Shown here piece by piece: positions 2,350 through 49,972 of a stretch of 64,000 nucleotides of DNA. Origin of the DNA: Lingula anatina (taxonomy: Eukaryota; Animalia; Brachiopoda); assembly GCA_051362555.1 (NCBI GenBank), contig CM120640.1:8928001-8992000 (forward strand). Reading direction: 5' to 3'. The position numbers and the translations under genes are program-made. The stretch's first letter is position 1. Each line of letters starts with the position of its first letter. The notes beneath the pieces are model-generated. The model was not told where the DNA came from. It saw nothing but the letters and a program-made list of their open reading frames with translations, and searched no databases.

Positions 2350-3359
2350 TATCTTCAGAAGTGTAACATTTTCCCTGAGAGATCCTAAGCAGCCCAAGAA
2401 TGCCAGAATGAAGATGATAATTCCCAGTATAATTACAATGATTGTCACATCAAAAATTAAGTCATATATGCTCTCTATTTCTGCAGATCCACTCTGACCA
2501 AGGCGTTCCTTCTCAATGTATGCCCACACTCCAATGCCAATCAAACCTCCACCAACGAGCTGAAATTAATTGAAAATTGACAATATTAAAAAAATTACAT
2601 TTTCCAATATTTCAATGCACAACAAACAATCTGACTTAACTAAGTTAACAAAGCTGGCCACTTATAAAAAATAACAATTATTCACTCTAAAGAAAAATTA
2701 AGGGGGGAAATAGATGTACAATGAAAGGTACAGGGATTTAATTATTAGCTGGAAAAACTTGATATAATATACTTTATGGTTTCAATACTTTCCCCTTAAT
2801 GCTCAATGCAATCTTTCAAACATTCAAAAGGATATTTTCAAAACACTGACCATATCTATTTTGCTTGACAATTTTATTACTATACCATCACAGTGTGCCT
2901 CCACGTGGAATGGTGAATTTTATTTTCAATTTTTTTGTCTAATGAAATTAACATGGTTTAAAGGCCGCATAACTAAGTCCTGTGAATCATTCTTTAAAAA
3001 CTCACTTTATTTTGATGTTATAATTTTTATAACTTTTACAAAAAAAATGTTAGTTTAACGTAATGCCATCACTGCCAATATATCAAATAATGTGCCAAAA
3101 ATGCTCATTTCTTGTTCAAAATGAAAATGTGATAAATTTCAGACAAAGCACGACAAATGAATGAATCACTGCATATAAATCATAACATTTCACTCTCGTT
3201 GATTCGATACACTGATAACATTACTGCATGCCTCTATACACACTATTAGTGACTTATATTTATCAAACTTACCCAGAAAAAGAAGTTGAAAAAGAACATC
3301 AAATACTTCACAATCGGGCTGACGAATGTATCGTCATCTTCTGGGCCACAGCAGCCCAT
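2350..3359 (-). CDS. TSPAN33: Tetraspanin, TSPAN33/TspanC8-like; exons 1-2 only (3359-3273, 2559-2350), gene continues left of the window
   Basis: Spliced translation MGCCGPEDDDTFVSPIVKYLMFFFNFFFW-LVGGGLIGIGVWAYIEK...IILGIIIFILAFLGCLGSLRENVTLLKI, with GT-AG boundaries in phase 0. FVSPxVKYL and GCxGSLREN are tetraspanin TM1-TM2 signatures close to TSPAN33. Confidence 0.85.
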
Positions 3360-25650: not shown

Positions 25651-26964
25651 GTGATGAAAAAATTCATTGAATCAACAAAATTATTTGTTGTTATGTTATT
25701 TGTTGAAGATTCATCCTTGAGCTGTTTTTGTTAAAGTTATAATAACTCTTCGTTTTGGCCAAAAATACGATTTCCTGGAAAAAAACGGCAATTTTCCCGT
25801 ACTTGCCAATGGTCAACGACCCCATTCCTGTATTCAAAGTTAATCCAGGGTTTTTTTCCTAAACGTACGGTTTTTTGTTAAAATCTCTTAAGAGATTTTA
25901 ACTGACGGAGCCCTCTCGTATCGAGCGATAGTTTCTGGTGACCTACTTAAAACCGTGGGAAAAGCAGACAACAACAACACTATATAACAATATTATAAGA
26001 TTCATAAGATATATCCGTCTTTTTGCTCAAAATGCATTTATATCTACAATGTGTGCAATTCTGGGCTTTTCGTTATCCGACGCACTGTACAAAAACTCTC
26101 AACTTGCGTCTGAGGGTTTCCCGCCATGTTATTTTGGTCTCGAATGAACGCGAGAATCCGCGTGACACCTAAACGTCATTGGCAACGGATGCACTTGTCG
26201 ACCGCGAAGAAAGGCACGAAAGCCCAAGTGACAAGCACAGATTTTAGTTTTACTACAATGACAGTCGTTTTAGTGGGAAAATGCAACAGAATATATTTCC
26301 AGGCGTTGTTTACAATGTATTTCTTGCGGAATTTTGAATCTCAAAGGAAGAGTTATTATTGCTTTAAGGGCATATGGTTGCTTATTTTCAATATGCTAGC
26401 TGCATAAGGCAGATTCTGAAGAGCCGACACTGGGAAGCAAAAAGTGAACAAAAATAATTGCCTGACAAAGAATTTCAGGAAAACTTTACAGGACTTCTTG
26501 TCAAACATGCATCTACCCTTACAATTTGAGCATTTCAATCACACACACATAAAACCCTCCAAATATGCAATCCAACTCACTGCATGCATGCCAGGAAGTA
26601 TACAATTATGATGTTAAAATAGCCCAGCTAAGTTGGTCAACAGTCCAGCAAACATAGCCACTGTCTCATGAATGAGAGGCAATTGGTAGTTTGCATTTTC
26701 AAAGTATTTCTTTCATTTATTCAAAAACTACTAAACTAAAAACAACTGCTGAATTTCAAGAAATCTGCAAATTGATATACAAAATATAGTGAGCTGTATT
26801 ATAAACAAATTTCTAAAATATTTTTAAAACTTATGTAAAAGATTATGTTAAAGCAGATGCATCATGCAATACCTGACCTAAAATTACAAGAATCTCTTGT
26901 GCATAAAAGATTGGATACAGAATGATAACTGCATTATCTTTTACATCATTTTAAAGCAATTTCC

Positions 26965-27977
26965 TCAAATCCTGTGTTTCAATTCCTCATAGAAGTTGAT
27001 GGCACGTTTGGATTTCAGCAGACAATCTTCCCAATCTGGCCAGAACTTTGCCTTCATTCGCTCCAAATACTGGCAAACGTTTATGCATTCCACTGAAAAT
27101 AATTGTTTTGGCAAGTGAGGAAATTTTCCAAAAATAGTAAATATAATAATAATAATAATAGTAATAATGAAATTGGTAAAGAGATATAAAACCATTAGAT
27201 ACAAAGCTTCATTCTGATGGAATAAGGTAATAATTCAACCCATTCAACCCATGCAAAAGAAATTTTTATGAAATACTGCATTGAATTATTAGTTTTATAA
27301 AACCAGTTTGCTAAAACAGGAGAGAAATATTTTTGAAGCTATTTTATTTGTGTTACCCCTATTATGCAAAAACTGTAAAAGTCTTTTAGTATTATTTACC
27401 CATCATTACAGTTTTCAGAGGGAGTCCATCTGGCATATGCCACAATATCTGTGACAGCATCCCCAGCAGAACACAGTCAATCTCACAAGGCTGATCCCCC
27501 ATGAAAAAGGCCTTGTCCCCTGAAACCAGTTTCATATAACTCATCAGTCTGTCTGAAATGGAACTTAACTGTTCTTTCATGCAAAAGTCTCCCATGGAGA
27601 TTTATTACTGCAATGTCACCCTGTTTGGACCCCTTCTTAGATTCTCTTATGCTAAGATACACACCCAGAAATATTTACAGTATTTGGCCTGTCTTTACCA
27701 CATATCTGAAAAAATAATTATTATTGCAACAGCCTTCTCCAGCAAAGAGGATGGTGTTTAATTGGCTAAACCCATACCTAGAAAGGCAGAGATTGCTCTC
27801 AGATCATCAGCTCCTATCTGCTCCACTTGTTCTTTGGAGTGGCGACCTATCCCATGTGACCAACTACTTTTTCTGAAGTAGCGTAATATTATTTTTCTTG
27901 CAATCCAGGAGAGAGGCCATCTGACGTATAGCCCAATGAAACTGACATCTATATACGAATATGTCAGCAGAATGCAC
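26965..27977 (-). CDS. FAX-like alternative 3' module: exon 4c (27977-27778), 5c (27519-27400), 6c (27092-26965)
   Basis: The translation is intact: (W)CILLTYSYIDVSFIGLYVRWPLSWIARKIILRYFRKSSWSHGIGRHSKEQVEQIGADDLRAISAFL-GDKAFFMGDQPCEIDCVLLGMLSQILWHMPDGLPLKTVMM-VECINVCQYLERMKAKFWPDWEDCLLKSKRAINFYEELKHRI*. Splice sites are canonical and phases match FAX exons 4-6. A minus-strand AATAAA lies at 26716-26721. No exons 1-3 were seen between 27978 and 30280. Confidence 0.85.
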
Positions 27978-28165
27978 CTAAGAATAAATGGAAATAATTA
28001 GAAACTGAATTCAATCCTTACCGGCAATACAGATATTTGTATTTTAATTGCTTTGCACACCTTGTCTCTACTGTTTCTGGTTCACTTGCAAAGACAAAGC
28101 CACGGGTAAAATGGAAGAAGACGAAAAGACACCACTCATTAAGCACACACATTCTGATAATGTTA

Positions 28166-28405
28166 AGCCTAGGTCCCAACTACGTTTTGGACGCATGTTT
28201 TTTAGGTTCCTTGTGTCCGACTAGGACGCAGCTAGATGGCACATAGCAGCTGTTGATCATGTCAAAAAGTTTCTAAGTGCTGTTTGCGTCCTCCAAAAGC
28301 TGCACGATGGACGTGCTCCTCACGCACGAACTCCCATGTTTTCCCCCCTTTTTTTTGGCCATAGACCACACGTAGCAGCCCATACTTTCAGTTGGGACCT
28401 GGGCT
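28166..28405. mobile_element. MITE, PIF/Harbinger-like
   Basis: TIRs AGCCTAGGTCCCAACT / AGTTGGGACCTGGGCT, flanked by TTA on both sides. Confidence 0.75.
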
Positions 28406-30280
28406 TTATGTATTTTCAGAAGGTTGGGTATATTGATCCAAGTTGATCCCTGGTAATTGGAAATCTCAATAGTTCATATATGATGATGTTTAAGGAAAAA
28501 GTACCAGATTGAGTTACAGAGCAAATAGACCATCCAATAAAATGAGAGGCAACTTGACCGATTTGATAAAATATGAACATAATTTGACTGAAATTTTCAA
28601 GATGGGCATATTGGTTGACGAAAATATTATGGTTTAAGGCAATAAAAATGGAATATACCCAATGCTAATTTACCTCTCAAATACTAGTACCTTCATCTTG
28701 GTGGCCAATAAAAATTACAATAACCTCTCGACTCAAATCTTTTCCAAAATATTACTCCTCATTTCAGACTAGTTTATTTATGTAAATTCCAAAGATATAA
28801 ATCTCCTACTTCCAGTTTCACAAAGAACATCACTTCCATCACTGAGGTACAGTTAAAAATAAAGTTTAAGAAAAAAGTCATTGCTCTGCATTTAACTGAA
28901 GTTTATTGCCACCGACTGTTCCTACTCTATTACAATTATTTCATTATGAAAAAATTTCTCTGTGCATATATGACAATAACTATGGCCTGTTTATTTCGTA
29001 TATCCAAAAAAGGAACAAAAGCAATCAACATTCACATTTTGTAATTGAAGGGTTCATTAAAATATACATAAAGAAACACAAATTAAGACAACCATACAAT
29101 AAGTATAATTCAATAAACTCTTCAATAAACTCTTGAAATCACCAAAAAATGTAACATATAATAGTAAAGCATAATAAGCTCTAGAAACACTTTTAATTCC
29201 TTGGAAAAAATAGGTGACTATATAAAATGCTTTACAAATTATCTGATTTACACTGCAACCTGAACTGTTAGCTATAACAATAACCATAACCTGAAATATT
29301 CAAGAAAAAAGCGATTTGTATCGAAAATATCAAGCACATTATGTGCAATCATATATACATGCTAACATACAAAGTGTATCAGCATTGTAGCATTAATGAA
29401 GGGAGGTATAACATACATTTTTGAAAAAAAACAAACAAAAAAACAATACAAATGTTGTTAGTTTCCAAAATGTGTACTTTCAAACAGGTGAATTATAAAA
29501 ACTCTGCTTATTTCACAAGTGCACAACCATTACATTCATAAAATCAAGTGTTAACTGTATATCAAAATATCTTGCATATTAACTATGTGCTTTCAAAGTC
29601 AGCATTGTAGCAATTGTATACAGAGGTATACAAATGAACATACCAGTATTGTTGCTAAAACAGTAAAAATGTTGTTACTTTCCCTTAACACTAATACCAG
29701 AAAAGGAACCACAAAAAACTTGTGTCAAAAAATATATATATTAACATCGAAAATAAATTGTATACTATGTTGGACTATCAAAACTATTTCATCAATGACT
29801 GTTATGATCCCCATTCTGCATCAGTAAAACTATGGACCTGTTCACTGAGCCAAAATCTACCTTTGCTGGGTCCTTATGTGTATATCTGAACATCAGTAGC
29901 ACCAAGAATTAAGAGATTGGGTAGGCAGAAATCATTCAGTAGTAAATGGTTGATACATCACACAAAACTGTATCCATAGTTAAGCAATAGTCTTATGGTT
30001 TATGTATACATGCAGAAAAAGAAATCAAACTTCACATGTTCAAATCATTTGGGTAGTCAATGTTTATCACCTGTACTTATGAAATTACTTCTGACATATG
30101 TAATATATCCACAGGGTCAAGGTACTGTTGGTGCGAATTTCTATCAAAGCACTTCCCTTCAATTGGCATCTCCACATTTAATAATTCTTCATATTTCTCA
30201 GTAAGTAAAATTATTTGCTCCTCAGTTTTTATTCCATTGATTTATGTAATCTTCATCTTATATTCTAACACTGTATAATC

Positions 30281-33200
30281 TTATTCCATCTTCTTTCTTT
30301 CAGGTTCAGTGATATTTTCATCCCAGTCTGGCCAAAAGCGCTCTTTCATTCTGTAGCAATATTCAATGAGGTTTGGAAACTCTTCTGCAACGAATGTCAT
30401 AGTATAATCATATATTAGATAGTATAATCACAAAGGCTTCGTTCACATGCAATGTCTATTTTCTATTTTCGGTATGTCTTATGATCACGGTCTGTGCACT
30501 GAATATCCCGCCGCGTAATTACTGGCAGCGCGAGCCAGTTACTTATAGTAACTTATAGTAACGTAATTACTGGCAGCGCGAGCCAGTTACTTATAGTAAC
30601 TTATAGTAACTGGCTCGCGCTGCCAGTAATTACGCCGCGGGATATTCAGTGCACAGACCGTGATCATAAGACATACCGAAAATAGAAAATAGAAAATAGA
30701 CATTGCATGTGAACAAAGCCAAAGAACCCTTAAAGCCACAATGAATACAAGACCTTTATACATACATACATATATCATATATACATATATCATTGCAATT
30801 TTAACAAGGTATATCCCATTCAAAACCATATTAGCAAATTAAGATCTAAAGCCCATTTTCAAGTTCCAAAATTCTAATTTTTATCATTTTGAATGAAAAT
30901 CAGCAGTCTCAATATCCATTATGAGAGTGGCTCAAAAATGAGAAACTTGGTATTCAAGCAAACCATCCTTCCTAAAATATAATACAATTCAGCAATGCTT
31001 GACAGACTTTGGCTTGTATTCAATAAAGGCAACTGACTCTCAGAAGATTTAGATTGAATTACATTTAGATACAATTGAAGATAATATCTACCAACTTCAC
31101 TAATCAGGCACTGGCCAGTGAACCTACTTTTGATCCATATTTCATGTGGAGAATTTGGCATTTGCCAGACTACTTGGGCCAGCATACCAAAGACGGCACA
31201 GTCCGCCTCACAGGGCTCATCCCCCATCAGGAATGGCTTCTGACCTGAAATTATCAACAGGTTATCTTCATATATTAGGTACCAGGTATTCTTTCCATGG
31301 CATGTTTAAATGGGATGCTGCACCAAGCAATTTCATAAATTTATAGAAAACCATACTCATATCAATTACTGTAGTTTAAGACTTGCATCTACCTTAAACT
31401 TTTCTTGAACATTTAGAGGTCAAAAAGGATAAAAACATAGTAAACATACAATTATAATGATGATTGATACTTTGTAGTACCAGTAGTTTATGACAGTTGG
31501 CATTATATCCCTTACTAAATACCAAGTCTAGTATAGAGGCATTAACACATATATACATATGTTACCATATTTGTTTAAATAAAATATAACACCTGAAAGT
31601 TAATCAGGCTAATAAAAGGTAAAGGTGCATGTAAATATAATGCTAAACTTTGGTTTATGAAAATAGCATCACAGTAAGTAAAGAAACAACTGAAATATCT
31701 GTTAGATGCCTCTAGTACAACTGATGAGTTAGTGCAATTGTTGTCTGGCTGAAGCAAAATTAAAAACAAATTACACGCAGCTACACCACTAATAGCATGA
31801 GGTACACTATTTCCTGCAAAATAAAGCAGTTTGTTCAAGATTATACTGAAAGTTAAACCGGTGAATACATTGTCATAGCATACACTATTCAATTCCTACA
31901 CAATTTGAAAGTTATTATACCTCTGAATGCTTTTGTCCAACACGTAGGACTTTTTCAGTCAATCTGAGACAGTTCCTGGTGAACATCATTCACTATAACA
32001 ATGCCCCAGATGACTTTCTGATGTACAGTGTATTTTATCTGTCTGAATCTACTAATGAAACAGCAAACCATCTCCATATATCTATCCTCACCTTAAAAAC
32101 TTAATGTTCTAATTTAGTTCTTACTCAGATAATCAGACAAAGCTTTCAGGTCATCCTTCCCAATTTTTAACACTTCCTCTTTGCTGTGACGTCCTATTCC
32201 ATGTCCGTGCACTTCAGAATTGACTGTTCTCCTTATCAAGAACAAGGGCACAGACAAGCGGAGATTTTGAAACAAATATTGCAGATCCTTCTTTGTCCCA
32301 TACAACCAACGCTGCATGACTAACGTCCTGGAAATGCAGAGTGCACTTTACCAGTATATTAGGGCAAACAATGAGTGTTAGACCTTTAAAAAACTTAAAT
32401 CACCAAGAAATTTACTCAATACAGGGGCGGATTTAGGCCATCTTCTGGGTCTTCCGGAAGACGGTCAGATTTTCAAGTTTACATTGACGGGTATCTAATG
32501 TTTTCTGTCGGAAGACGGTCAAAATAGAGGATGGTTCAACAAAGATCATTTAGAAGACTGTCAGAAAATATCCCTGGTTCCGCCCCTGCAATACCATATA
32601 AAATTTAGTAGTCTCATTTATAATTATATAAAAATTTTACAAGTGAAGTAAGCCAGTCTCCATCTCCAGTCTGGTTCAAAAATTAGAAATTTAACACTCA
32701 AAACTTAATTTACTGGTTGTAATTTTGTAAATATCTTGTTGATTTAGGAAAATTAATAATGATCTAATTCCCAGGAAAAAAGTTTTGTTATATTATTTTT
32801 AACAGTACTGTTATGTTAAAGCTCAACATTCATCGTGTCTTGTAACTTTATGAGAAGTGATTTTAAAATCCTTTAAAGTTCTAATCTCCCTTTTAAATAG
32901 CCAGATCTTATAGCTAAAGGGGATGTTGCATCCTTTATAAGAAAACATGTTATGAAATATCATTCATTATCACAGTGAAATGAAAAACAAAAAATAAATG
33001 TAATTCTGACCATAGACAAATATAATCTGCCCAGGTTCTGACTTGACTTAATCCAAGTTTGAATATGTAACCAAAAGGAGCACTAAAAAAATATTAAAAT
33101 TAAGTTTTTGAAGAGTGTATGATGAAAGGTGTTTTTCTAATAAACACAGGTGTCAAGCCTCTGGAGACAGTCATACCCTGACCTTGGTAAGAACATGAGA

Positions 33201-36200
33201 TCTTTGCATAGACAGCATATGCCGTGGTGTATTAAGGGATGTCCTGACCTCCCCCTCCCCTTCGATTTCTGAAAAAAATCACACCAATGGCCCTCTCTTG
33301 TAATTAAAATTTTTACCTCCCCCCCCCCCCCCTTCGATTTCTGAAAAAAATCACACCAGTGGTCCCCTTTTAAAATACAAGAATTTTGACTAGCTGAATC
33401 ATAGTTTTGAACTGTACCGAATGGCTCCATTTGCCCTCTAAATACCAAAAGGGACAATCAGATATTTTACAATGGTTTTCCTTGCCATTTGAAAGCCAGT
33501 CTTCTGAAAATGTTTAAGAAATCAACTCATTTTAGTTACATACACTGGAAAAGCAAGGAAACAAATTCTCTAACATGGAGCTGTGTTATACAAATGAAAA
33601 TCTTGGTGTTTGTGAGTTTTAAAATATGCCAGTTATTGAGGGAATTAAAAGCAAAGCATCATCTACAGTTCAATTTCAGTCTATTACTAATCAATCCACC
33701 ATTAAATCAACATTAGTAGTAGTATTACATGAGGGAAATTGCTTTGTTACAAAAATAATGTAAGGGGAGGAAAGTTTAGAAATCACAGAAGAATCAGACT
33801 GTGAGTTTTAAAAATGGAAATAATCTAAAACAAAATTACCTAAGAAGGTGCCAAGAGCTTGGATATCTTGCTGAAATATTGACATGACTTCTTTGCTGGT
33901 GTGCCTTCCCATACCTTGGGCTTTAGCATATCCAACAGCTTTTCCTTTTAATTTGTAGTAGAAGAAAAGGGCAACAGGTCTTGGGTAAGGAAATAGTTTA
34001 CAAACTTCCTTTTTGGAGTCATGAATCCAGTTCCACGAAAATAAAACCCTGAGATGTAAATGTCTGTATACAGTTATCATCTTCTGAGCATTCAATTTTT
34101 TATTTCCCTTCTTTTCCTTTATACTTTTTCAAAGCAGCTTATATTGAATAATATGATCCTTTTGCTGTAAACTGATTCAATTAAGTGATGACTCATTGTA
34201 GTAATTTTGTATGAAAAGGTTGAACACAATAAACACTGAATAACAGTTGCAACACTTTGAAGAGGCATGTATAGAACCTGATTTGGGACTTATTGTGCTT
34301 TTGTTTATTTGATGGAGGGTAATGTGTAACTGTTGCTTGCAGTTACAAATATCACCATACACAACTTTATATTATTCAATTAGTTATATTGACCTTAACA
34401 TTTAAGAACATTTCAGCATTTCAACATTTCTCTAGCAAATTGTGTTGTGTAGTTGTTTATATATCATATGGTATATTTTGCTTACGTATAATATAATGTG
34501 TACATGTGCAGTTGTTATAATAACTTTACACATTGATTTTTTTCTATTGCATATTTTCAATGAATAAAGTATTTTTGAAACATATCGATATAAATGACAT
34601 AAATGACATGGAGACATTAAAAAAGGCCTGAGTCTGAAAGAAATACAATGTAATAACCCAAATGTTACAAAATGTCATCAAACTGAGTCCAGTGCAGTAA
34701 AGCCACCAATCAATCTAACACCCCATTTCCATAGATTAGATCGACCTACTTTAGATCGACCTAACTCCCTGGGGGTTCACGCTAAATAGCTGTCAGCCGG
34801 GCGGACACGAAAGTTAATTACCCCCTTAAAGCTTGTAGTAGGCGGGATGGACATTTAAGTCGGATTATCTGAAAGTAATCTAGTGAGACTCCCCGCGGGG
34901 ATAGATCGATCTAAAATCTATGGGAATAGAGCCTAAAAGATCACAGTTTAAATTCCACTTCACAGAATGTAGCACAGTTTGTATTCACTAACCATTTCCA
35001 GCAGTACTGAAAATTACACTTGCCATTTAATTTGATCTTTCTTTTTTTTATTCAGAACTAACCAAACATCAGGTACTTCACAAATGGCGCATGAAAAATT
35101 CACAATAACTCAACAACCATATCTCACCAGTAGAGATTTTCCTCTGTCATCTTCTGGAAAGCTCTGGCAATGGCCTTCTGTTCAGCAGTGAGGTGGGCAT
35201 TAAGATCTATACCACGTTCCTTGTTCAGGTACTCAATACAGAACTGAGAATCTGCCACTGCCACACCATTGTATTCCATCCATGGCGTCTTCCCCTTGGA
35301 TGAGAATTTGCCTGTATGGTCATTCTGAAATTGGAGTTTGTACTACATTAGTGAACAATAAACAGCATGCTATGAACAATAAACAGCATGCTAAACTTTT
35401 TAAACTTCCAGGAACAGATCTTAATCTGTATATATATTCCTTATGACCTAGAACAACCAGTCTATTAATGTCACAGAGCTTGACAAGGTCTACAGATGTC
35501 ACAGAGACTGTAAAGAAGGCTCTTCATGACAGTAGAAGTCTTGTACATGTATATCACTAAGTTTATATCCTTGACTTGAGATGAGGTTTTATGTACTGCA
35601 GTAAATGTAAGCTTAAAAAGTTGAAAAAGTCTTAGTAAAAATGTGTCATATTTTCAGGACAATTAACTTAGAACTGCAAAAGCTTATGTGAAAACTTATA
35701 CAACTTAAAACAGTTTATTTGGGCTTAGAAAATGTAAAACATCATTTTTGACAAAATGGGTAAAATGAATGACATAATTCACTGACCCAAATTATCAAAT
35801 TTTAAAAGTCTCAAATATTACAGCATTAATTCTTATTTCATCAAAGTCTAACCAAGCATCAAACTGCTAATTTACAAGGCTTTTCAACTGGGAAATACCT
35901 CATAAGGAATTTTAGCCATCCTTAGATATGTTTCCAGCTTCAATGGAAAAGGTGAAATACTTGGTGCTTTGGGACCACGTCCAAATTGATACAGGATCAC
36001 TGTGTCTTTGGGGGCAATTTTCTTCTCCCTCAAATGTAAAAATATGTCAGTATAAATAAAATAAGCACAGGTAAATTACTATTTTCATGATGACTATTTT
36101 CATTTGAAAATGAAAATAGTCATCATTAAAATATCAATATGGTTGTTCACAAGTTCCTCAAAATTTGAAATTCAGGGAAATATTTTTAAAAAATTACCCC

Positions 36201-37247
36201 CCTGCCTTGTTTCCCATTATAACTCTTCTGTGTGTGCTTTGGAAGATACTCTACTGCATATATGTATCAATTTGTACTTCCTATATTGCACGCAAAGTGA
36301 CCAAAAATCTTTAATTTGATTATACATACACCTTCTTCACATGCTTAATTACTACTCTGCTTTGGAAGTCCTGGTGTTAAATTTTACACTGTATGTTGAT
36401 GCCTAGCTCCTTTACTCAGTTAATTGTTAAGTGACAAATTTCAAGTCTCTTTTACGGGGGCATCTCGATAGTCCGAAGGTTCATTGGTCCGATGGTTCAT
36501 TGGTCCGAAAAGTGGTAACATTTTCATCGATTTTGTAATCAAGGGTTCATTGGTCCGAAGGTTCTATAGCGAACATTCGGACCAATGAACCTTCGGACTA
36601 TTGAACCTTCGGACTATTGCTACGGCCCCCTCTTTTACATTATAAAGTGGGTGAAAATCAAGTGGGGCAACTTTTGAGTCATTTTTGAAAGTGGCATCTA
36701 AAAAAAAAATAACAATTTAAACATGGTGTCACTAAAACTTAAACATTTTTTTTATCCAAACGAGATGGCACAAAAATTTTAACAGCTTATTCGTACTCAG
36801 ACACATAGTTATCTGGGTATTTTAATACATTTTTTGAAATTTAAAAATTTTAAGTCTCTAGCCCACATGAGCTTAATTAGAAGAAGGTGTGGACCCAAGT
36901 TTAACCCTAGCCTGAGGGCATGCAGTTCATGGGCCTGCGGGCCCTTTACTTCAGCCTTAACTTCAATGCATAGAAATACATGTACATATGCAAATTTCTA
37001 TGCTTCAATCAGTGTAAGGCTTTACTCTGACCTTGAATACATACATGTAGCACTGCAGCCATGAGGCCCTATCTGCAGCAAATTCGGAGCAAAATTACAT
37101 GTAGGGTACATACTATAAGGGGCCTGCCAACTTTATTCACCTTCGAGTAAACCGCTTCACAATGACGTATCCAAAAACAACAACACCAGCTACTGCACAG
37201 CTGAGTTTAAACCACTTGGAACCAAGTATTTCATGTAGATTCTCCAT
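30281..37247 (-). CDS. FAXC: Failed axon connections homolog (FAX/metaxin-like GST fold), gene B, about 285-287 aa
   Basis: Exons: E1 37247-37141 (MENLHEILGSKWFKLSCAVAGVVVFGYVIVKRFTR, TM anchor); E2 36028-35899 (DTVILYQFGRGPKAPSISPFPLKLETYLRMAKIPYE); E3 35324-35128 (SSKGKTPWMEYNG..ADSQFCIEYL..EENLYW); E4a 34048-33840 or E4b 32327-32125; E5 31244-31128 (KPFLMGDEPCEADCAVFGMLAQ); E6 30384-30281 (FPNLIEYCYRMKERFWPDWDE). These motifs are diagnostic of the FAX family; one-to-one orthology with FAXC is not established. Confidence 0.92.
30435..30720. mobile_element. Fully palindromic MITE (Harbinger-like termini)
   Basis: GGCTTCGTTCACATGCAATGTCTATTTTCTATTTTCGG... is mirrored by ...CCGAAAATAGAAAATAG..ACATTGCATGTGAACAAAGCC, with an internal direct duplication of about 47 bp at the centre. 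Confidence 0.85.
32125..32327 (-). CDS. FAX gene B variable exon 4b (203 nt)
   Basis: ttccag|G TLVMQRWLYGTKKDLQYLFQNLRLSVPLFLIRRTVNSEVHGHGIGRHSKEEVLKIGKDDLKALSDYL A|gtaag; phase 2 to phase 1. Confidence 0.9.
32422..32588. mobile_element. Small non-autonomous DNA transposon
   Basis: TIRs CAGGGGCGGA / TCCGCCCCTG, with CAATA directly repeated on both flanks. Confidence 0.75.
33222..33447 (-). mobile_element. Fragment of a dispersed DNA-transposon family also present at 37543 and 39258
   Basis: The reverse complement shares AACTATGATTCAGCTAGTCAAAATTC and CAGAAATCGAAGGGG with the other copies; it has an internal duplication. Confidence 0.7.
33840..34048 (-). CDS. FAX gene B variable exon 4a (209 nt)
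   Basis: tctcag|G VLFSWNWIHDSKKEVCKLFPYPRPVALFFYYKLKGKAVGYAKAQGMGRHTSKEVMSIFQQDIQALGTFL G|gtaat; phase 2 to phase 1. Confidence 0.9.
34722..34932. mobile_element. MITE (same family as 42299-42537)
   Basis: Imperfect TIRs CATTTCCATAGATTAGATCGA / TCGATCTAAAATCTATGGGAAT. Shares GATCGACCTAACTCCCTGGGGGTTCACGCT and AGTGAGACTCCCC with the second copy. Confidence 0.75.
36456..36630. mobile_element. MITE with 15-bp subterminal repeats and an 8-9 bp target-site duplication
   Basis: GGGGGC...GCCCCC ends, GGTTCATTGGTCCGA repeats inverted at the two ends, and (C)TCTTTTAC duplicated on both flanks. Confidence 0.85.
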
Positions 37248-41731: not shown

Positions 41732-44700
41732 TTATTCCATCTTCTTTCTTTCAGGTTCAGTGATATTTTCATCCCAATCTGGCCAAAAGCGTTCTTTCAT
41801 TCTGTAGCAATATTCAGTGAGGTTTGGAAATTCCTCTGAAAGTTGAAAAGAAAATTACTTCTGGTTAATTGGTAACAGAAAACTGGTTTGGTATATCTGG
41901 TTTCATGAATCAGTGAAATAAATGTGAAATGCAGTTACTTTGTTTCATTTATTTCACTCATTTAAAGAGATAAAATGCAATGAATACTGTAATTCCATCC
42001 AGGAGAGTTTGGAACTGTCAACAACCATCATCTCCTCCCCCTTGCTTGTCTAAAAACTTTACAGAAGGGACATCACATAAGACTGCAACAGTCTTGAACA
42101 GATATTGCCACACAGTAGTCAAACTTGACATCCAAATCACGCAGATGTGGATTGGAGTGATATCAACAGATCAGATCCAAATGTGGATTGTTTGATATTA
42201 ACAGATTCCAAAAAAGAATGGTGTCTAACAAACCATTTGTTGTAGACAAACATGTGAGATGCACTTTGACTATATTAGATATGGTCCCTCATAAACTGCA
42301 TTCCCACAGATTTAGATCAATCCATCTGGATCGACCTAACTCCCTGGGGGTTCACGCTTAAAGCTGTCAGCTCAAGAGGCTTAAATGTCTGTCACGCCTA
42401 CCAAATCAGCTAGGGTAAAGATAATTACCCCCTAACAGCTTTACTAGGCTAACAGACATTTAAGCCAGCCAAGTTGACAGAATTTTAGTGAGACTCCCCA
42501 TGGGGATAGATCAATCTAAATATCTGTGGGAATGGTCTCATAGTGTTATGTGACCACTGCCACACTGACCAATGAACCTACCTTTGATCCACTTCTCATG
42601 TGGAGAATTTGGCATATGCCAGACAACTTGGGCCAGCATACCAAAGATGGCGCAGTCCGTCTCACAGGGCTCATCCCCCATCAGGAATGGCTTCTGACCT
42701 GAAATTATCAGTGGGTCATCCTCATACATTAAGTTATGGGCATTGCCTAAATTTTATTAGTAATTAGGTTGATGTGAACAAAACAGCATTTATAACTAGT
42801 AAAAGGATAAAAAATCAAATAGAAGAATTTTAATAGGGTGCAAAAAGTCTAGCCATAGGCTTGCTACTTCCTTGAGTAGTTGTTAAAACAAAGTGTAAAG
42901 AGATGTTAAACATCAGATCCAATAAATTTAGTATTGACTTGTTATTAAAACCATCCATGTGATAATGACAAAATGTATCAGTAACTAAAAAAAAAAAAAA
43001 AAAAAAGCTAAAACCATAACATGCATTATTCTCAATAAGTATCAATGATAATAAAACAATACATCTCTACAATTAAATCTACACCTACAAACAAAATATC
43101 TAAAACATCTCTAAAAATTGCACAAAAACAGCAATTAAAATGACAATATATTTTTTGTGCTTAAGTTACATGAAAATTAAATCCGACTTTAAAGATTTTT
43201 CATTTGTAAGTCATCTTACAAATGGTTGAGTAAAAATTCTTTAAAAAATCATTTGACTATATAAAAAGTAAAAAATCAAATAAAATTAATACATTTCTCT
43301 CTTCTGATCATGAATTGGCAAATCCTAAAATTAAGCAGGGTCATCTAGCACTGCAGTACATAGGGAAGGAATGAAGAAAGTTAGTCTATATAGCATCCCC
43401 AGTACCTGAACCACAAGATGCAAGATGTAAGCCTAATTGATGTAACTATAAGCCTGATTTGGTATAATTTGGTTGGAAGTATATGCAGAAGAACCATCTG
43501 AAGTTTCTCCGACATTATACACCTTTAACAGATTTTTCTCCCAAAAGGATTTTCCCTGCATAACACTTAAGAACACTGCATAAAAGGAAACAGCTGAAAA
43601 TATTAAATAAATAAATTAACAAATAAATAAATTTGGATAAAAGATGTTTTTTTAAACAGTGATCATTATGCTATCAAACTTGCTTCTGAATTAAAATACT
43701 CCAAAAACAAACATTTTAAAGACAAATTTCTACATCAGCTTGTATCTTGTTGGAAGAACTAAGCTGGCTCTCAAAGAAGCGAGGTGTGTTATACCATAAG
43801 CAGAACCAAATGTTAGACTGTCTTGTATTGATGCTGTTGACCTGTGCAAATTTTAATTAAAAATTTGAAAGACTAGATTACGTAAGTTGATATAAGTGAA
43901 TATTTGAATGTTAAAAAACTTGTATTCTGTCCCTTTCATTGAGGTATGATGAATAGATTTCAAACAAATATTTTTACAATTCACAGTCTATCAAAAGCAC
44001 CAATTACCTCACTAACTAAGCACACGGGACCTGGTAAACTAATTTAGTCCTTACTCAGATATTTAGACAAAGCTTCAAAATCTTGTTTTCCAATCTTATA
44101 AATATCTTCTCTACTGTGACGCCCTATTCCATGTCCTTTCATTGCAGACAGTATTCTGCGCCTGACCAGTGGAAGGATAAGACGAAGAAATAACCCTCCT
44201 TGAGGAATCAAATACATCAGAACCTCAGTCTCCCCATATAACCAACGATGACAAACAAGGGCCCTGAAAATGCACAATATCAATACTGCTACTAATCATA
44301 TTTATTTTAGTAAGTTCATAAGATACCTCCAACAGCAAGTTCTCTTTCCCAGCTTTAAGTCTGTAATATGAAGCATGACATGGATTGGAAGGAGTTTTCA
44401 AGACCTCTGAATTGCACATGATATTGGGGAAACACATTTGAATACATTTTTTTACATTGAAGTTAATGAAATGGTTTCCAAAGTATGACTATCTGTTTTC
44501 ATGCAACAGCAGTTCACATACCTTTTGTAAAGACTTGCCTATGTTATACAGACATCAAAACACATATATGAGGGCAAACCATATCATAGCTTTAAATCCT
44601 TTTTTTACCTAGAGCATGTATCAATTTTTTAAAGATCTCAACTTTCATCCTTCAATATTTTGGGCTCCAAATTGAAAACCAAATCTCGGATATTCTTATG

Positions 44701-47700
44701 AATGCTACAAATAAAGACACTTCTTTATCAATTATCTGACATTGCCTGCAGTTCATATAGCACAACACTTTTTCTCTGCCATGGAGTCCCATTTCATAAT
44801 CACAAGATTGGTTCTGCAGTAGGCATCTGTAACACAATTATCTTAGACCTGTGAAGCAGTGGTCTAAAAAAGCTGCCATATTTCCAACGTTGGACAATTA
44901 TGGTTTGAAATGTCATCATGAATCAGTAGATATAACATGAATAAGCAGAGTCCAGAGCTGATGACTGTCACATCTATTGACATCTATATAACCATGCAAT
45001 GACTGAAAATATTATTTGTTTTGAGGAGTTATTTTAAAATGACACAGCTACAAAAACGAGGTATCTTGATACATTAATAATAGGGGCAATAGAAAGAAGG
45101 ATCCAAGTACCTACTGATCTGCCGACTAAATATGGTAGACCACAGTTCAAAAGCAATGCCGCTGATACCTGATGGTCTCCCCGACTCCACATGCGCCTTT
45201 AAACAGATAAAATCTCTGCTCCAAAGTTTAATTGCTAGGCCCCTGCAGCAAAGGCGTGTGTGGAGGAGGGGAGACCACCAGGAATCACTTTTGAACTGTG
45301 GTCGACCATATTTAGTCGGCAGATGAGTAAGTACTGGGATCATCCATTCTGAATGGGGCCATAGATTAATGATCAATTTAATTTGCTTTTTGTGATAAAG
45401 AGCAGTGTATTTCTATGCTTGTGAGCTATATTCTACTATTTAATTTGCTTTTGTGATACAGAGCAGTGTATTTCTATGCCTGTGAGCAATATTCTACTAT
45501 AAGTCTATATAGGCAGTGTGTGTGTGTATAAATATATACAAAAACATCTTATATTACTATTTAAAAAATTAAATGAAAATCAATACTTATAACATGCAGA
45601 TTGGAAGTTAGTATTAGGGCAAAGTAAGTGCTTTTAGTAACAGATATCAAATGGATAAATGCATTATAGGATCAAGGATGGCATGCTCCACACTGTAAAA
45701 AAAAAAAAAAAAACACCAAACCTAATACCTAAAAAATCAGACAGAGAGTTTAAGTCATTAAAGCCAATGTGAAGTATGTCATCCTTAGCGTGCCTCCCAA
45801 TGCCATGACCCCACATTTCTTGTTGAATATTCCTTCGTATCAATCTGGACAGTAACCACCGAACTAGACCTTTGTATGGTATCACTCTGTATAAAGCTGT
45901 AAGATCATCTCCAAATGTGACATAGCACATAGTCCTGTAAAACCAAACCAATGACAAAAACTTTTATCATTGGACTGTTCGGTTAAAAGATTACCAAGAA
46001 GGAAAATAAAAAGATAGGCTAAAAACAATATTTGAAACAATGGAACAGAATATAAAAACGTTTACATTATTGCTACACAAACCTGTATTGTGAATCTTTG
46101 TCTAATCACACTCATTAAAATATGCAAAAAATGACTAAGACTCCATTGTGGTATAAAAAAAAATATCTGGCTATGGGCAATGCAGAAGCAATAACTTTCA
46201 ATCATCAAATGTGTAAGTGAGCAGTCTACAAAGATGTTTCAGTGATAAGTATAAATATCAACAGCAAAAATATCCAGTTATTTAAATAACCATAACCTAT
46301 CAATAAGTCATAGTTATGAAAAAAATAACATGGAATGAGGAACAACAGACTTAACTGTAACTTGACATCAGTGCTACTTACTGCTAACTTGGACAACCCC
46401 ACTTTAATTCCAATGGGCTTTAAATCATGATTATAGTTATCAACATTATAGTAAAAGCTTCTTTATTAAAAGAAAGAAATATTGGATAGTTGTCAGATCA
46501 TTACTTTCAATGAATATATATATATATATATATATACTAAAATATCAATAACTTGCTTACTGGCCTGTAGAAAATTTAAAGAATCACTAACATTTTTTTC
46601 TTTTGGAGATTTTAATCCAACTTAAACATTATCACTAAAACTTTGTTTTTCTTTAAATTTCTCACCAATAGAGATTCTCCTCTGTCATCTTCTGGAAGGC
46701 TCTGGCAATGGCCTTCTGTTCAGCAGTGAGGTGGGCATTAAGATCTATACCACGTTCCTTGTTCAGGTACTCAATACAGAACTGAGAATCTGCCACTACC
46801 ACACCATTGTATTCCATCCATGGCGTCTTCCCCTTGGATGAGAATTTGCCTGTATGGTCATTCTGAAATTAAAGTTGGTACTACAGTAGTAATCAATAAA
46901 CAACATGCTGAATTTTTTAAAATGGCTTTTGCTAATGCCCCTATTTCACACAGACCACGAATCCCACGAATCGCCAGGAATTGACAAATTTCAGGATTCG
47001 TGATTGAATCGTAATCAGTCGACTAATCAGTTCGTGAAGTTCTTAACAGATTCGTATATATACGTAGTCAGTTCTTGCAATTCTTGATCAATCACGAACT
47101 GAATACGATTCAACAACGAATCCTGAAATTTGTCATTTCCTGGCAATTCGTGGGATTCGTGGTCTTTGTGAAACAGGGGCATAAAAGAGAGTACCTTTTA
47201 CTAAGAACTTGATCCTTTCCAAGCTAATAGAAAAATGTCTCCAGATGTCTTGCAGTCATGCACAATGTAAGTTTATCAAAAAACAGATTGTCAATTGTCA
47301 TCTTAAACTTGATCTCACTATGACTACGCTATCTATACTTAAAATTTCAATGTCAAAAATCTTATATCAGATCATTTATTGCATACCTCATAAGGAATTT
47401 TAGCCATCCTTAGATATGTTTCCAGTTTCAATGGAAAAGGTGAAATACTTGGTGCTTTGGGACCCCGCCCTATCTGATACAGGATCACTGTGTCTTTTGG
47501 GGCAATTTTCTTCTCTCTGAAATATCAAAATTTTACATTCAACCAAGTTGTTCAATGTATGTGCTGAAGAAGGGTTTTTCACCAAAAACAGCTTATCATC
47601 ACAGTTTTACATCAGGGTTTATATGCTGGACTGAAATCCATGAGTAAAAGGGTAAGCACAGTGCATTTCAGCATAGTGTGCAGGTGTGAAGGATGCAGAG

Positions 47701-49972
47701 AGACTCCTTAATTAGAACTAAAATACTGACACAATCAAAGTGTATGTGCCAATGTCAGCATAAACAAACTTAAGTGACAATAAATGAGAGTTTATAATCT
47801 GACGGGTAAAATGACATTGATGGAAAATGGTGACTTATAACTTAAAATCAGATACATCCAGTGTCTGTATATTAAAATTTTTGAAGTGTACACGACAAAA
47901 ATATGAAAAAAATCAGAGCCTTTATTATATATGCAGTAACATCTGTGAGCCTAGTTCAATAACTCAGTGACAATATTCAGTACTTATCAACCAATCAGAT
48001 CAAACAAAGTTACTCAGTGATATAATGGCATTTCTCTTATGTATGAAGTTCAAGATGGTCATCCTGGTCACACAATAAAATAGCAGATCTAGCTACTATC
48101 ATGTTTCTAGCACTCTCAAAAGGACCATCAAAACAAAATGTGGGCCTATTCCCTCTCCCCCCCTTTCTTAGTTAAAAAAAGAAACAGTTTCCTAGATCTG
48201 CCAAAGAGCAAAAGTAAATGGCTGCATGTGCAGAATTCAGAAGTAGTCATTTCATGCCATGTCAAACAGTATGTAACTTACCTTTGAAAGTATGCCAAAG
48301 CTTCTTAAAAAGATGAAAAATAAAAGGAAGTTAAAATCTTATGGGCCATTTGGGCATTTTTTAAATCAGGTGAGATGCAGTTTCTAGTAGCAATACCATA
48401 AACTACCCTTTTCTTCAATGATTTTCTGCCAACTGGGGGTCATGACTTCAGCACAGAAGATTTATGATAAATCTAGGATACTATAATACATATTTTATAT
48501 GCAATAACAACAACGACAATCTGATTCTACCTACAACAGCTGAGCAGTTCTGATCAAGGCAACCTGTACAGAGCTATCTAGCTGTTTACTCTGAAGACAG
48601 CCAACATTTATGGGTTATGTAATCTTAGACAGGGTTCCCATACTTAGACGGTCCCCAAAACTCCCTGAAAGTATCAAGGTATATACCAAGATTATTTGAT
48701 GAATCAAAAAAAAAAAAAAAATGTTTTTCCAAGCCTGCACTCTCTAAATAAGCCTCAACAGAGTTTAATCAACAGTGATTCACCTCCATATAACCGAGTG
48801 CTGTTATGTACCTTGATGAAACCGGTTCTATAGTTTCTATGATGTGCTTACTCAAAGTCACCTGCAGCTCAGATATCCAGTTAATGGTAACTTTATAAGA
48901 CTAGTCCATTGGTGATCCACTAAATTGTGTAAGCACAACCAATCTCAATAGAAAACTTTATCGAACATAGTGTATTTGGCCTTGAATATATTAATAGTCA
49001 ACAGAATATGATGTATGCAAATTCATGGAGTTGGTCCGTTTTCTTACGTTAAACTAGTGTTGCTTTATTTGTAATGTGTACACCTGTAATTTTGTATTTT
49101 CATCTCATATCATATATCTTTCTCTATAACAATAAGTGTTAAAGACAAATAATACTTGATATTAATTAAGAGGCATACCCAGCCAATATTGTTCAACTGA
49201 ATTTGATAAATCATGTAAAGAAAATGACAAAGAAAACAAATTGCAATATGATTAAAGTGTTAATTGCCTAACAATGAGAAAAGAAAAGAAATTTATCTTA
49301 GATAGAAATAAAAAGGTTAATAATTTGTAGTAAGGAAACTGAAATAGTGGTTTTAATCCACATCCACCCACCCCCTATCACAATATTTTTGATATCCAAA
49401 GAATGTAATACATTTACCATTTCATGTCACAATATACCAAAAATATAAATGACAAAATTGGCATGTAAAATAAGATAAATGTTGAAGCAAGTTTCTCTTA
49501 AACAAACCTGCTTAGAAAACATATAAGCTTCTATGTGTAAAGGAATTTCAGTGTCAAGTTCTACGCATCTACAATTTCATCTATTCAGTGTATGACGCCC
49601 CACATTGCGACTATAAGTCATGATTAGTACACTAGGAACTTTTAAACCTGAGCTCGGTCCTAACAGTAAAATAGGAGAGACTGACTTTTGCCATTCAACC
49701 ACACAGCATGAATTTTGCCGCATCTTGCACAACCACAAGCGTGACTCTGCATTGCAGCTGCAAGTTCTGTCGCAGTTGTGAAATCAGGCGTACATGTAGA
49801 TCTACATTATCTGATGTATTTTTTAAAGCCATATTTTTGCCAGGCCCAGCCCACTATTTTCTATATACCTTCTTGTGAGCCTCTTCACAATAACGTATCC
49901 TAAAACAACGCTTGCCACGGAGCAGCCAACTTTAAACCACAAGGTTCCCATTACATCTCTGAGCCCCTCCAT
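41732..49972 (-). CDS. FAXC: Failed axon connections homolog (FAX/metaxin-like GST fold), gene A, about 285-286 aa
   Basis: Exons: E1 49972-49869 (MEGLRDVMGTLWFKVGCSVASVVLGYVIVKRLTR); E2 47516-47387; E3 46862-46666; E4a 45934-45729 or E4b 44263-44055; E5 42698-42582; E6 41835-41732. All introns are GT-AG, and the CDS is in frame with exactly one exon 4 (858 or 861 nt). Confidence 0.92.
42299..42537. mobile_element. MITE (same family as 34722-34932)
   Basis: TIRs CATTCCCACAGAT / ATCTGTGGGAATG, plus internal homology to the 34722 copy. Confidence 0.75.
44055..44263 (-). CDS. FAX gene A variable exon 4b (209 nt)
   Basis: tttcag|G ALVCHRWLYGETEVLMYLIPQGGLFLRLILPLVRRRILSAMKGHGIGRHSREDIYKIGKQDFEALSKYL A|gtaag. 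Confidence 0.9.
44725..44905 (-). pseudogene. Degenerate exon-4 copy (pseudo-exon) in FAX gene A
   Basis: The minus strand gives TIIVQRWKYGS..., YEMGLHGREKVL and ELQAMSDN, collinear with TLVMQRWLYGT, HGIGRHSKEEVL and DLKALSDY. It has frameshifts, a stop codon and a decayed acceptor (catttcaa). Confidence 0.65.
45081..45363. mobile_element. Palindromic MITE between exons 4a and 4b of gene A
   Basis: Long inverted arms ATCTGCCGACTAAATATGGTAGACCACAGTTCAAAAG / CTTTTGAACTGTGGTCGACCATATTTAGTCGGCAGAT. Confidence 0.8.
45377..45500. repeat. Tandem duplication of about 61 bp
   Basis: TTTAATTTGCTTTTGTGATA..GAGCAGTGTATTTCTATGC.TGTGAGC.ATATTCTACTAT occurs twice. Confidence 0.9.
45729..45934 (-). CDS. 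FAX gene A variable exon 4a (206 nt)
   Basis: ttacag|G TMCYVTFGDDLTALYRVIPYKGLVRWLLSRLIRRNIQQEMWGHGIGRHAKDDILHIGFNDLNSLSDFL G|gtatt. Confidence 0.9.
46936..47181. mobile_element. PIF/Harbinger-like MITE
   Basis: Long TIRs TGCCCCTATTTCACACAGACCACGAATCCCACGAAT... / ...ATTCGTGGGATTCGTGGTCTTTGTGAAACAGGGGCA, with a TAA target-site duplication. Confidence 0.88.

What the first reader, a model, noticed from the sequence alone, without database searches (positions are those of the whole stretch)
26965..27977. Headless exon 4c-5c-6c module downstream of gene B: alternative whole C-terminal domain
Seen: an intact and more divergent exon 4-5-6 set begins 2.3 kb past the gene B stop codon, with its own stop and AATAAA (26716-26721). 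No exons 1-3 or promoter-like CpG patch are visible in between. Exon 4c starts in phase 2, matching the E3 donor at 35128, and the join would give a 293-aa ORF. Inference: E3 can skip E4a, E4b, E5 and E6 and read through the first poly(A) site, so the locus combines cassette exclusivity with alternative last exons.
Basis: partly seen in the sequence, partly recalled or inferred. Interest (0 to 1): 0.75.

Follow-up and report, generated by a model that had tools for sequence, protein, structure and literature searches.

The report
GST-like gene with swappable tail half
In the brachiopod Lingula, three extra exons behind a FAXC (GST-fold) gene are intact and transcribed at low level, and are likely spliced onto the gene's shared front half to give a protein with a different back half; the public annotation already lists this isoform.

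Summary
Exons 4c (27977-27778), 5c (27519-27400) and 6c (27092-26965) are intact, have AG/GT ends and matching phases, and joining them to exons 1-3 gives 293 aa. The window is a Lingula anatina failed-axon-connections (FAXC, metaxin-like GST-fold) locus. RefSeq already annotates the proposed join: XP_013418978-81 are named isoforms X1-X4, share exons 2-3, and end in 4c-5c-6c (X1, X2), 4a-5-6 (X3) or 4b-5-6 (X4). RNA reads show the module spliced internally (5c-6c 5 reads, 4c-5c 6 reads) on the gene's strand as a minor form. The 2.3 kb gap holds no GST N-domain exon, and exon 4c has no in-frame ATG. The E1-3+4c-5c-6c protein folds as a complete GST-like model (pLDDT 91) and keeps 26 of 29 conserved C-domain residues although synonymous sites are saturated, so it is old and under selection. 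I did not see the E3-to-E4c junction in reads; it rests on RefSeq, phase and exclusion. Verdict: a real alternative C-terminal module from an old partial duplication, a known kind of mechanism (recalled parallel: Anopheles GSTD1), annotated but not found described in print.

The parts
27778..27977 (-). Exon 4c, 200 nt, phase 2 in, phase 1 out; residues 146-211 of the 293-aa isoform (end of helix 126-152, low-confidence loop, helices 168-186 and 193-211)
   Evidence: read depth 0.5-4.9 in 4 of 4 runs
27400..27519 (-). Exon 5c, 120 nt; Pfam GST_C_6 core (E 5e-10)
   Evidence: joint 27518-27777 in 6 reads from 3 of 4 runs
26965..27092 (-). Exon 6c coding part with TGA stop
   Evidence: joint 27092-27400 in 5 reads from 2 of 4 runs
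26716..26721 (-). AATAAA, candidate distal poly(A) signal; use not shown
   Evidence: near-zero depth around it
27978..30280 (-). Gene B proximal 3' UTR plus spacer; end of the inferred 7150-nt E3-to-E4c intron; no N-domain exon
28171..28400 (.). Small repeat-like element with 11-nt inverted ends (likely MITE); source of the CpG bump in the gap
30228..30233 (-). Proximal AATAAA of gene B; molecule ends pile up at 30217-30218
   Evidence: table 6 (14 and 7 molecules in X1, X2)
30281..30384 (-). Gene B exon 6 (proximal last exon, TAA)
31128..31244 (-). Gene B exon 5
32125..32327 (-). Gene B exon 4b, 203 nt (RefSeq isoform X4)
33840..34048 (-). Gene B exon 4a, 209 nt (RefSeq isoform X3)
35128..35324 (-). 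Gene B exon 3, shared; phase-2 donor at 35128; GST N-domain and start of the helical domain
35899..36028 (-). Gene B exon 2, shared
37141..37247 (-). Gene B coding exon 1, shared; hydrophobic helix (residues 12-30, Kyte-Doolittle 1.97), predicted membrane anchor
41732..49972 (-). Gene A, upstream tandem paralogue with its own E4a (45934-45729) and E4b (44263-44055) and no C-type module behind it

Best explanation
Exons 4c-5c-6c are an intact, transcribed duplicate of the 3' half of a Lingula FAXC (metaxin-like GST-fold) gene, and are likely used as an alternative C-terminal module spliced onto the shared exon 3 of gene B. Shown: the exons, their phases, their internal splicing, their strand, their low abundance, and the lack of N-domain exons in the gap. 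Annotated by RefSeq but not seen by me in reads: the E3-to-E4c join. Inferred mechanism: most transcripts join the E3 donor to E4a or E4b (each 2 mod 3, so using both or neither shifts the frame), continue through E5-E6 and end at the proximal poly(A) site near 30218. A minority would escape cleavage there and join the same donor to the E4c acceptor 7150 nt away, removing E4a, E4b, E5, E6 and the proximal site as one intron. One predicted membrane anchor and GST N-domain would thus carry three helical C-domains that differ most in the exon-4 segment, which by general GST structure lines the hydrophobic ligand site; the likely purpose is different ligand or partner specificity. Origin (inferred): an old duplication of the 3' half, or an old full paralogue that lost exons 1-3.
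For: RefSeq X1-X4 have consecutive accessions, identical E2-E3 and three different C halves that match the window 100%. Joints 27092-27400 (X1 1, X2 4 reads) and 27518-27777 (X1 1, X2 3, X7 2 reads) with GT-AG ends; module reads have the same mate orientation as gene B's 3' UTR in the stranded-looking runs; depth about zero over 28386-29130. No N-domain exon in the gap. No ATG in E4c or in the 7 open codons before it; the first in-frame Met is in E5c. 26 of 29 columns conserved in at least 80% of 109 homologues are kept (homologues: median 27, minimum 24), while synonymous sites against A and B exons are saturated (pS 0.61-0.84, pN 0.28-0.53). AlphaFold model of X1: pLDDT 91.3, pTM 0.86; Foldseek top hit GST StyI 9qd3 (E 1e-14, TM 0.69/0.84), then tau GSTs and SAM-complex chains. 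E4c has the most pyrimidine-rich acceptor of the 9 compared (15 of 20).
Against: No E3-to-E4c junction read was seen: the successful lay did not include E3, and no loose end at 27977 is among the rows shown (127 rows hidden). RefSeq isoforms are automated models, and the RefSeq model of gene A (XP_023931415.1, 481 aa) has E2-E3-E4a twice, unlike the window, so that assembly may be faulty at this locus. RefSeq's shared E2-E3 differs from the window's gene B at 3 residues (N75, L82, M86 against K, H, F), and X2 has one Val fewer in E1, so an extra 5' copy in that assembly is not excluded. Module depth is low (0-5x) and nearly absent over E6c and its UTR. In X1 the bin 27939-28087 has depth 2.0 where exon-only reads predict about 0.7, which could mean reads upstream of the acceptor. 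No transcriptome-derived protein with the join was found. No function or ligand was tested.
Confidence: 0.85

Rival explanations
1. The module is the headless relic of a partial duplication; its spliced RNA is read-through noise or comes from a weak internal start and makes no useful protein.
For: Low depth and few junction reads; distal poly(A) use not shown; slight read excess around the E4c acceptor in X1; long branches in both trees.
Against: Three exons are free of stops and frameshifts, with intact splice sites, at saturated synonymous divergence; 26 of 29 conserved residues kept; all three exons identical in protein to RefSeq; confident full fold.
Confidence: 0.05
2. The module is the 3' half of a separate third paralogue whose own exons 1-3 are missing from this assembly or haplotype (collapse of near-identical exons, or a deletion); RefSeq's N75/L82/M86 exons would be that copy.
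For: A and B exons 2-3 are 95-98% identical in DNA, so collapse is conceivable; RefSeq E2-E3 and one E1 form differ from the window; invertebrate FAXC genes often sit in tandem clusters (bioRxiv 10.64898/2026.01.05.697642, section 3.7).
Against: RefSeq gives the same N/L/M exons to X3 and X4, which use B's E4a/E4b-E5-E6, so they behave as an allele of B's exons, not as a C-specific copy. The window has no N and the gap is continuous. A and B introns are not alignable beyond short stretches, so a whole 5' half would not easily collapse.
Confidence: 0.07
3. E4c is joined mainly to gene A's exon 3 (donor 46666, also phase 2) by read-through across gene B, or to both genes.
For: Phase is compatible; A is highly expressed, since the loose ends at E6 carry A's E5 and 3' UTR letters; among the other exon-4 variants E4c is closest to A's E4a (46% against 27-41%).
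Against: It needs an 18.7-kb intron that skips A's poly(A) site and all of gene B; RefSeq gives X1/X2 the E1, E2 (Phe at the Q-F-G site) and E3 (Ala at V-A-V) of gene B.
Confidence: 0.03

Closest known systems
RefSeq Lingula anatina failed axon connections homolog, isoforms X1-X4 (XP_013418978.1 to XP_013418981.1)
   Same: The same locus and exon choices; E1 (X1, X3, X4), all E4 variants, E5/E6 and E5c/E6c match the window at 100% protein identity.
   Different: Three residues in E2-E3 differ from the window's gene B; X2 lacks one Val in E1. It is an automated annotation; no paper on it was found.
FAXC family of metaxin-like GST-fold proteins (Pfam GST_N_4 PF17172, GST_C_6 PF17171, Tom37 PF10568)
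   Same: All three domains pass the curated cut-offs in the 293-aa isoform; 41-56% identity to mollusc, annelid, hemichordate and other FAXC-named proteins among the listed hits with high coverage.
   Different: Other invertebrates are described with clusters of whole FAXC genes. A shared N half with swapped C halves was seen only in the 3 Lingula pairs; the other 17 pairs with E2 and E3 at least 85% identical (of 6216 pairs of 112 proteins) keep exon-4 identity of 59% or more. The Lingula proteins have a hydrophobic N-terminal helix, while bioRxiv 10.1101/2023.01.04.522723 reports no transmembrane helix in the FAXCs it examined (passages).
Anopheles delta-class GSTD1 / adgst1AS1
   Same: One GST gene gives at least four splice variants that differ in permethrin binding (PMC1964917, passage). 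Recalled, from no call: the variants share the 5' N-domain exon and use alternative duplicated 3' exons for the C-domain.
   Different: Different GST class and phylum, so independent in origin. Recalled: there each alternative is one terminal exon; here there are two layers, an internal either-or exon 4 and a three-exon terminal module.
Genes with duplicated variable terminal or internal exons (Drosophila mod(mdg4), lola, Dscam1; recalled)
   Same: A constant part joined to one of several duplicated variable exons.
   Different: Only three choices here; no docking-site/selector pairing stood out among the inverted repeats listed; no sign of trans-splicing, as all exons are on one strand in order.

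Membership tests
FAXC (metaxin-like GST fold) | GST_N_4 / GST_N_Metaxin domain | tested here: met
   X1 protein: 105.5 bits against cut-off 30
FAXC (metaxin-like GST fold) | GST_C_6 / GST_C_Metaxin domain, supplied by the module | tested here: met
   72.2 bits against cut-off 28, residues 201-264; E5c alone 39.3 bits
FAXC (metaxin-like GST fold) | Tom37 domain (present in some invertebrate FAXCs) | tested here: met
   32.5 bits against cut-off 25.1
FAXC (metaxin-like GST fold) | Complete GST-like fold | tested here: met
   Predicted model pLDDT 91.3; 756 PDB chains at E up to 0.001, top ranks GSTs and SAM-complex chains
FAXC (metaxin-like GST fold) | Glutathione binding, catalysis, or mitochondrial location | not testable with these tools
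   No assay possible; family function is unsettled in the abstracts and passages read
Alternative terminal-exon module from partial gene duplication | Duplicated 3' exons in order, same strand, phase-compatible with an upstream shared donor | tested here: met
Alternative terminal-exon module from partial gene duplication | Module is transcribed and spliced | tested here: met
   Two joints, 5 and 6 reads
Alternative terminal-exon module from partial gene duplication | Reads join the shared exon to the module's first exon | tested here: inconclusive
   Not covered; present in RefSeq models X1/X2
Alternative terminal-exon module from partial gene duplication | No 5' coding exons of its own | tested here: met
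   N-domain HMM over six frames of the window; no ATG in frame before E5c. A non-homologous first exon is not excluded.
Alternative terminal-exon module from partial gene duplication | Own used poly(A) site | tested here: inconclusive
   AATAAA present; no read pile-up
Dscam-type mutually exclusive exons | Docking-site/selector RNA pairing | tested here: inconclusive
   The 25 longest of 222 and of 128 inverted pairs were viewed; the strong ones are local hairpin elements, the long-range ones 70-89% AT-rich matches; no shuffle control and no second species
Pseudogenic fragment | Stops, frameshifts or decay of conserved residues | tested here: not met

The most novel reading that the evidence does not exclude
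The A-B-C cluster is a small ligand-site diversification system: constant exons 2, 3, 5 and 6 are kept nearly identical between genes A and B by exon-limited gene conversion, five deeply diverged exon-4 variants supply different binding pockets, and an ancient headless paralogue has been captured as a plug-in C-domain that can also be mixed combinatorially (E4a or E4b to E5c, E5 to E6c; all phase-compatible), giving up to seven C-domains from gene B.
Probability: 0.15. Interest if true: 0.55.

Novelty: new member of a known kind. Interest (0 to 1): 0.3.

Why it matters
It shows a FAXC gene diversifying by exon swapping instead of by whole-gene copies. Three natural proteins share an identical N half and differ in the C-domain, which is a ready comparison for asking what this poorly understood family binds and which segment sets specificity. 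It also marks the exon-4 segment as the variable part of the fold. The mechanism itself is familiar and the isoform is already in RefSeq, so surprise is modest.

Tried and rejected
No whole genome was held for the window, so other FAXC copies in the genome were not searched. The run search listed no RNA holder; 9 raw-read runs of the same species label were offered and 4 of them laid. Only 26300-30740 was laid, so E3-to-E4 junctions and gene B's upstream exons were not covered. No DNA locus was obtained for the RefSeq protein or for an exon-4-like protein from an unnamed contig, so conservation of the layout in other animals is untested at DNA level. Searches for other proteins with E4c: 1 of 18 candidates, the RefSeq one; 5 of 14 short candidates, none with the join; 16 weak hits, best E 9e-8, in the 50% library. 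Two multi-stretch hits there (P0127, P0140) looked like exon-4 arrays but are unrelated repeat proteins; P0132 is a Nematostella model with an internal C-domain repeat. Trees of exon 4 (114 rows, 69 columns, quick method) and exons 5-6 (112 rows, 69 columns) are poorly resolved: A4b and B4b pair (SH-aLRT 95), the module's place is open, and one Lingula clade for exons 5-6 is not rejected (p-AU 0.85); so partial duplication and capture of an old paralogue cannot be told apart. No convincing docking/selector pairing. Earlier scan findings: none by place or sequence. Literature: 0 papers for Lingula + failed axon connections; 1 unrelated paper for FAXC + alternative splicing + mutually exclusive; two searches for the exon layout of Anopheles GSTD1 gave 0 papers and term look-ups in four insect GST papers did not describe it (searches cover PMC4195677, PMC4654499, PMC9540044, PMC1847502, PMC8727960).

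Full report
Observation. The minus strand holds three exons at 27977-27778, 27519-27400 and 27092-26965, each with AG/GT ends and no stops before a TGA. They are homologous, in order, to exons 4, 5 and 6 of the two upstream genes A (49972-41732) and B (37247-30281). A C-domain HMM from 112 homologues scores them at E 3e-14, 2.5e-15 and 6e-12; the next unrelated segment scores 0.3. Exon 3 of gene B ends in TG|gt at 35128 and E4c starts with G, giving the invariant Trp145. Exon lengths give 293 aa for E1-3+4c-5c-6c, 287 with E4a-5-6 and 285 with E4b-5-6.

Identity. E4c matches, at 100% over all 66 residues, one of 18 candidates: a Lingula anatina 'failed axon connections homolog isoform X2'. Cluster look-ups give XP_013418978.1 (X1, 293 aa), XP_013418979.1 (X2, 292), XP_013418980.1 (X3, 287) and XP_013418981.1 (X4, 285). 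TBLASTN places X1 on E1-E2-E3-E4c-E5c-E6c, X3 on E4a-E5-E6 and X4 on E4b-E5-E6, with the same E1-E3. I infer from the consecutive accessions and isoform names that RefSeq treats them as one gene; I did not see the gene record or its read support. The window is not letter-identical to the RefSeq source: B's E2-E3 has K75/H82/F86 where RefSeq has N/L/M, and RefSeq's gene A protein (XP_023931415.1, 481 aa) repeats E2-E3-E4a, which the window does not. The proteins pass Pfam cut-offs for GST_N_4, GST_C_6 and Tom37, the FAXC signature described in bioRxiv 10.1101/2023.01.04.522723 (abstract listing and passages).

Expression. Four of nine offered RNA runs were laid on 26300-30740, reading about 6, 6, 6 and 25 percent of each. 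The E5c-E6c joint appears in 5 reads (X1 1, X2 4) and the E4c-E5c joint in 6 (X1 1, X2 3, X7 2), both GT-AG on the minus strand. Depth inside E4c is 2.7, 4.9, 1.4 and 0.5, against 37, 28, 3 and 15 at position 30245 in gene B's own 3' UTR: a rough module share of 7, 15, 32 and 3 percent (few reads, 3' bias, and reads up to 8% divergent, so only 'minor form' is safe). Molecule ends at 30217-30218 fit the proximal AATAAA at 30228-30233; lower depth continues to about 29150. Depth is near zero over 28386-29130, as expected for an intron. Against: E6c and its UTR are barely covered, so the distal AATAAA is unconfirmed; X1 has more depth in bin 27939-28087 (2.0) than exon-only reads predict (about 0.7); and the join into E4c was not displayed (127 loose-end rows hidden; exon 3 outside the stretch). 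Many reads on E6 come from gene A, as their loose ends show.

Selection and structure. Synonymous sites between the module and A or B exons are saturated (pS 0.61-0.84), so the duplication is old, yet frames and splice sites are intact. In residues 146-281 the module keeps 26 of 29 columns conserved in at least 80% of 109 homologues; those homologues keep a median of 27 and a minimum of 24 (alignment A1 used 112 of the 121 proteins then held, leaving out the near-duplicate X2, the 481-aa gene A model and seven long, short or partial ones). An independent start is unattractive: E4c has no ATG, only 7 open codons precede it, and the first in-frame Met lies in E5c. The X1 model has pLDDT 91.3 and pTM 0.86 and matches GST StyI (9qd3, E 1e-14), tau GSTs and SAM-complex chains. 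E1 is a hydrophobic helix, E2-E3 the N-domain and most of helix 126-152, E4 the end of that helix, the least confident internal loop (pLDDT 74-76) and two helices, E5-E6 the core C-domain. Exon 4 is the most variable segment after E1 across the family (median pairwise identity 0.31 against 0.44-0.56). That this segment shapes the hydrophobic ligand site is general GST knowledge, not tested here.

Mechanism. Shown: anatomy, phases, internal splicing, strand, minor abundance, no homologous 5' exons. Annotated: the E3-E4c join. Inferred: one donor competes for three acceptors; E4a and E4b (209 and 203 nt, both 2 mod 3) are kept exclusive at least by frame; the distal choice needs read-through of the proximal poly(A) site and removal of a 7150-nt intron; the product is a stable FAXC with a different C-domain. 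Confidence 0.85. Rivals are a noisy relic (0.05), a separate gene with missing 5' exons (0.07) and joining to gene A's exon 3 (0.03). Trees could not separate partial duplication from capture of an old paralogue. No RNA pairing code stood out.

Comparison. It is a FAXC family member by the domain and fold tests; function was not testable. It works like Anopheles adgst1AS1/GSTD1, where one GST gene yields at least four variants that differ in permethrin binding (PMC1964917, one passage); the exon layout of that gene is recalled, not read. Invertebrate FAXCs are reported as clusters of whole genes (bioRxiv 10.64898/2026.01.05.697642, section 3.7 read; 0 hits for Lingula, splic or exon in its text). 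Among 6216 pairs of the 112 aligned proteins, 20 share E2 and E3 at 85% or more; only the 3 Lingula pairs have exon-4 identity of 0.32 or less, the other 17 have 0.59 or more. That set is the top 120 of 278 hits, clustered at 90%, so the layout may exist elsewhere unseen. Searches for Lingula + failed axon connections (0 papers) and FAXC + alternative splicing + mutually exclusive (1 unrelated listing) found no description; PMC13121700 has no mention of FAXC or metaxin in its main text (term look-up). The library lacks most subscription papers, and no supplements were read (bioRxiv supplements are closed); gene tables there could list the isoforms.

Side result. Genes A and B have nearly identical E2, E3, E5, E6 (DNA 93-98%, pS 0.07-0.18) but diverged E1 and E4b (pS 0.59, 0.55) and introns that align only in the last 36-47 nt before E3 and E5 and in shared repeats. 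This pattern fits exon-limited gene conversion. The three residues where RefSeq's B differs lie in stretches where the window's A and B are identical, which fits a recent A-to-B conversion, but K75 and H82 are also the commonest family residues, so the direction is open.

Verdict. Real, correctly read by the first stage, already present in automated annotation, and a new member of a known kind of mechanism. Interest 0.3.

Noticed in passing
window 47516-41732 against 36028-30281 (minus): Constant exons E2, E3, E5, E6 of genes A and B are 93-98% identical in DNA while E1, E4 and introns are far diverged: likely exon-limited gene conversion.
   Followed up: partly
window 35899-35300 (end of E2, start of E3 of gene B): The window has K75/H82/F86, the same as gene A, where RefSeq's gene B has N/L/M; all other compared exons match RefSeq exactly. 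Possible polymorphic conversion tract that spans an exon junction without the intron.
   Followed up: partly
window 45934-45729 and 34048-33840: The first exon-4 variants of A and B are not counterparts (19% identity), whereas the second ones are (57%); A's E4a falls with a conserved mollusc group in the quick tree. No RefSeq protein with A's E4b was among the listed hits.
   Followed up: partly
window 49972-41732: RefSeq's gene A protein XP_023931415.1 (481 aa) repeats E2-E3-E4a; the window has one copy, so that model likely reflects an assembly duplication.
   Followed up: no
window 36030-36028: Gene B exon 2 uses an uncommon GAG acceptor (…tttgag|G), where gene A has CAG.
   Followed up: no
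window 18515-19406 (+): Exportin-7 exons (Pfam TPR_XPO7); this neighbour runs toward the module's 3' end (3 of 103 open frames had Pfam hits).
   Followed up: no
window 2287-2565 (-): Tetraspanin exon (Pfam PF00335, E 3e-11).
   Followed up: no
window 30435-30720, 45091-45350, 46935-47182, 34724-34927 with 42299-42533: Several hairpin-forming, MITE-like elements in introns; the one at 30435-30720 draws many reads from other copies.
   Followed up: no
window 13300-14934 and 15385-16392: An 817-nt tandem duplication (97%) and a 146-nt tandem array inside the exportin-7 region.
   Followed up: no
window 29150-30218: Gene B has reads beyond the proximal poly(A) site, with molecule ends at 29809 in one run and no AATAAA next to it: longer 3' UTR forms and leaky termination.
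   Followed up: no
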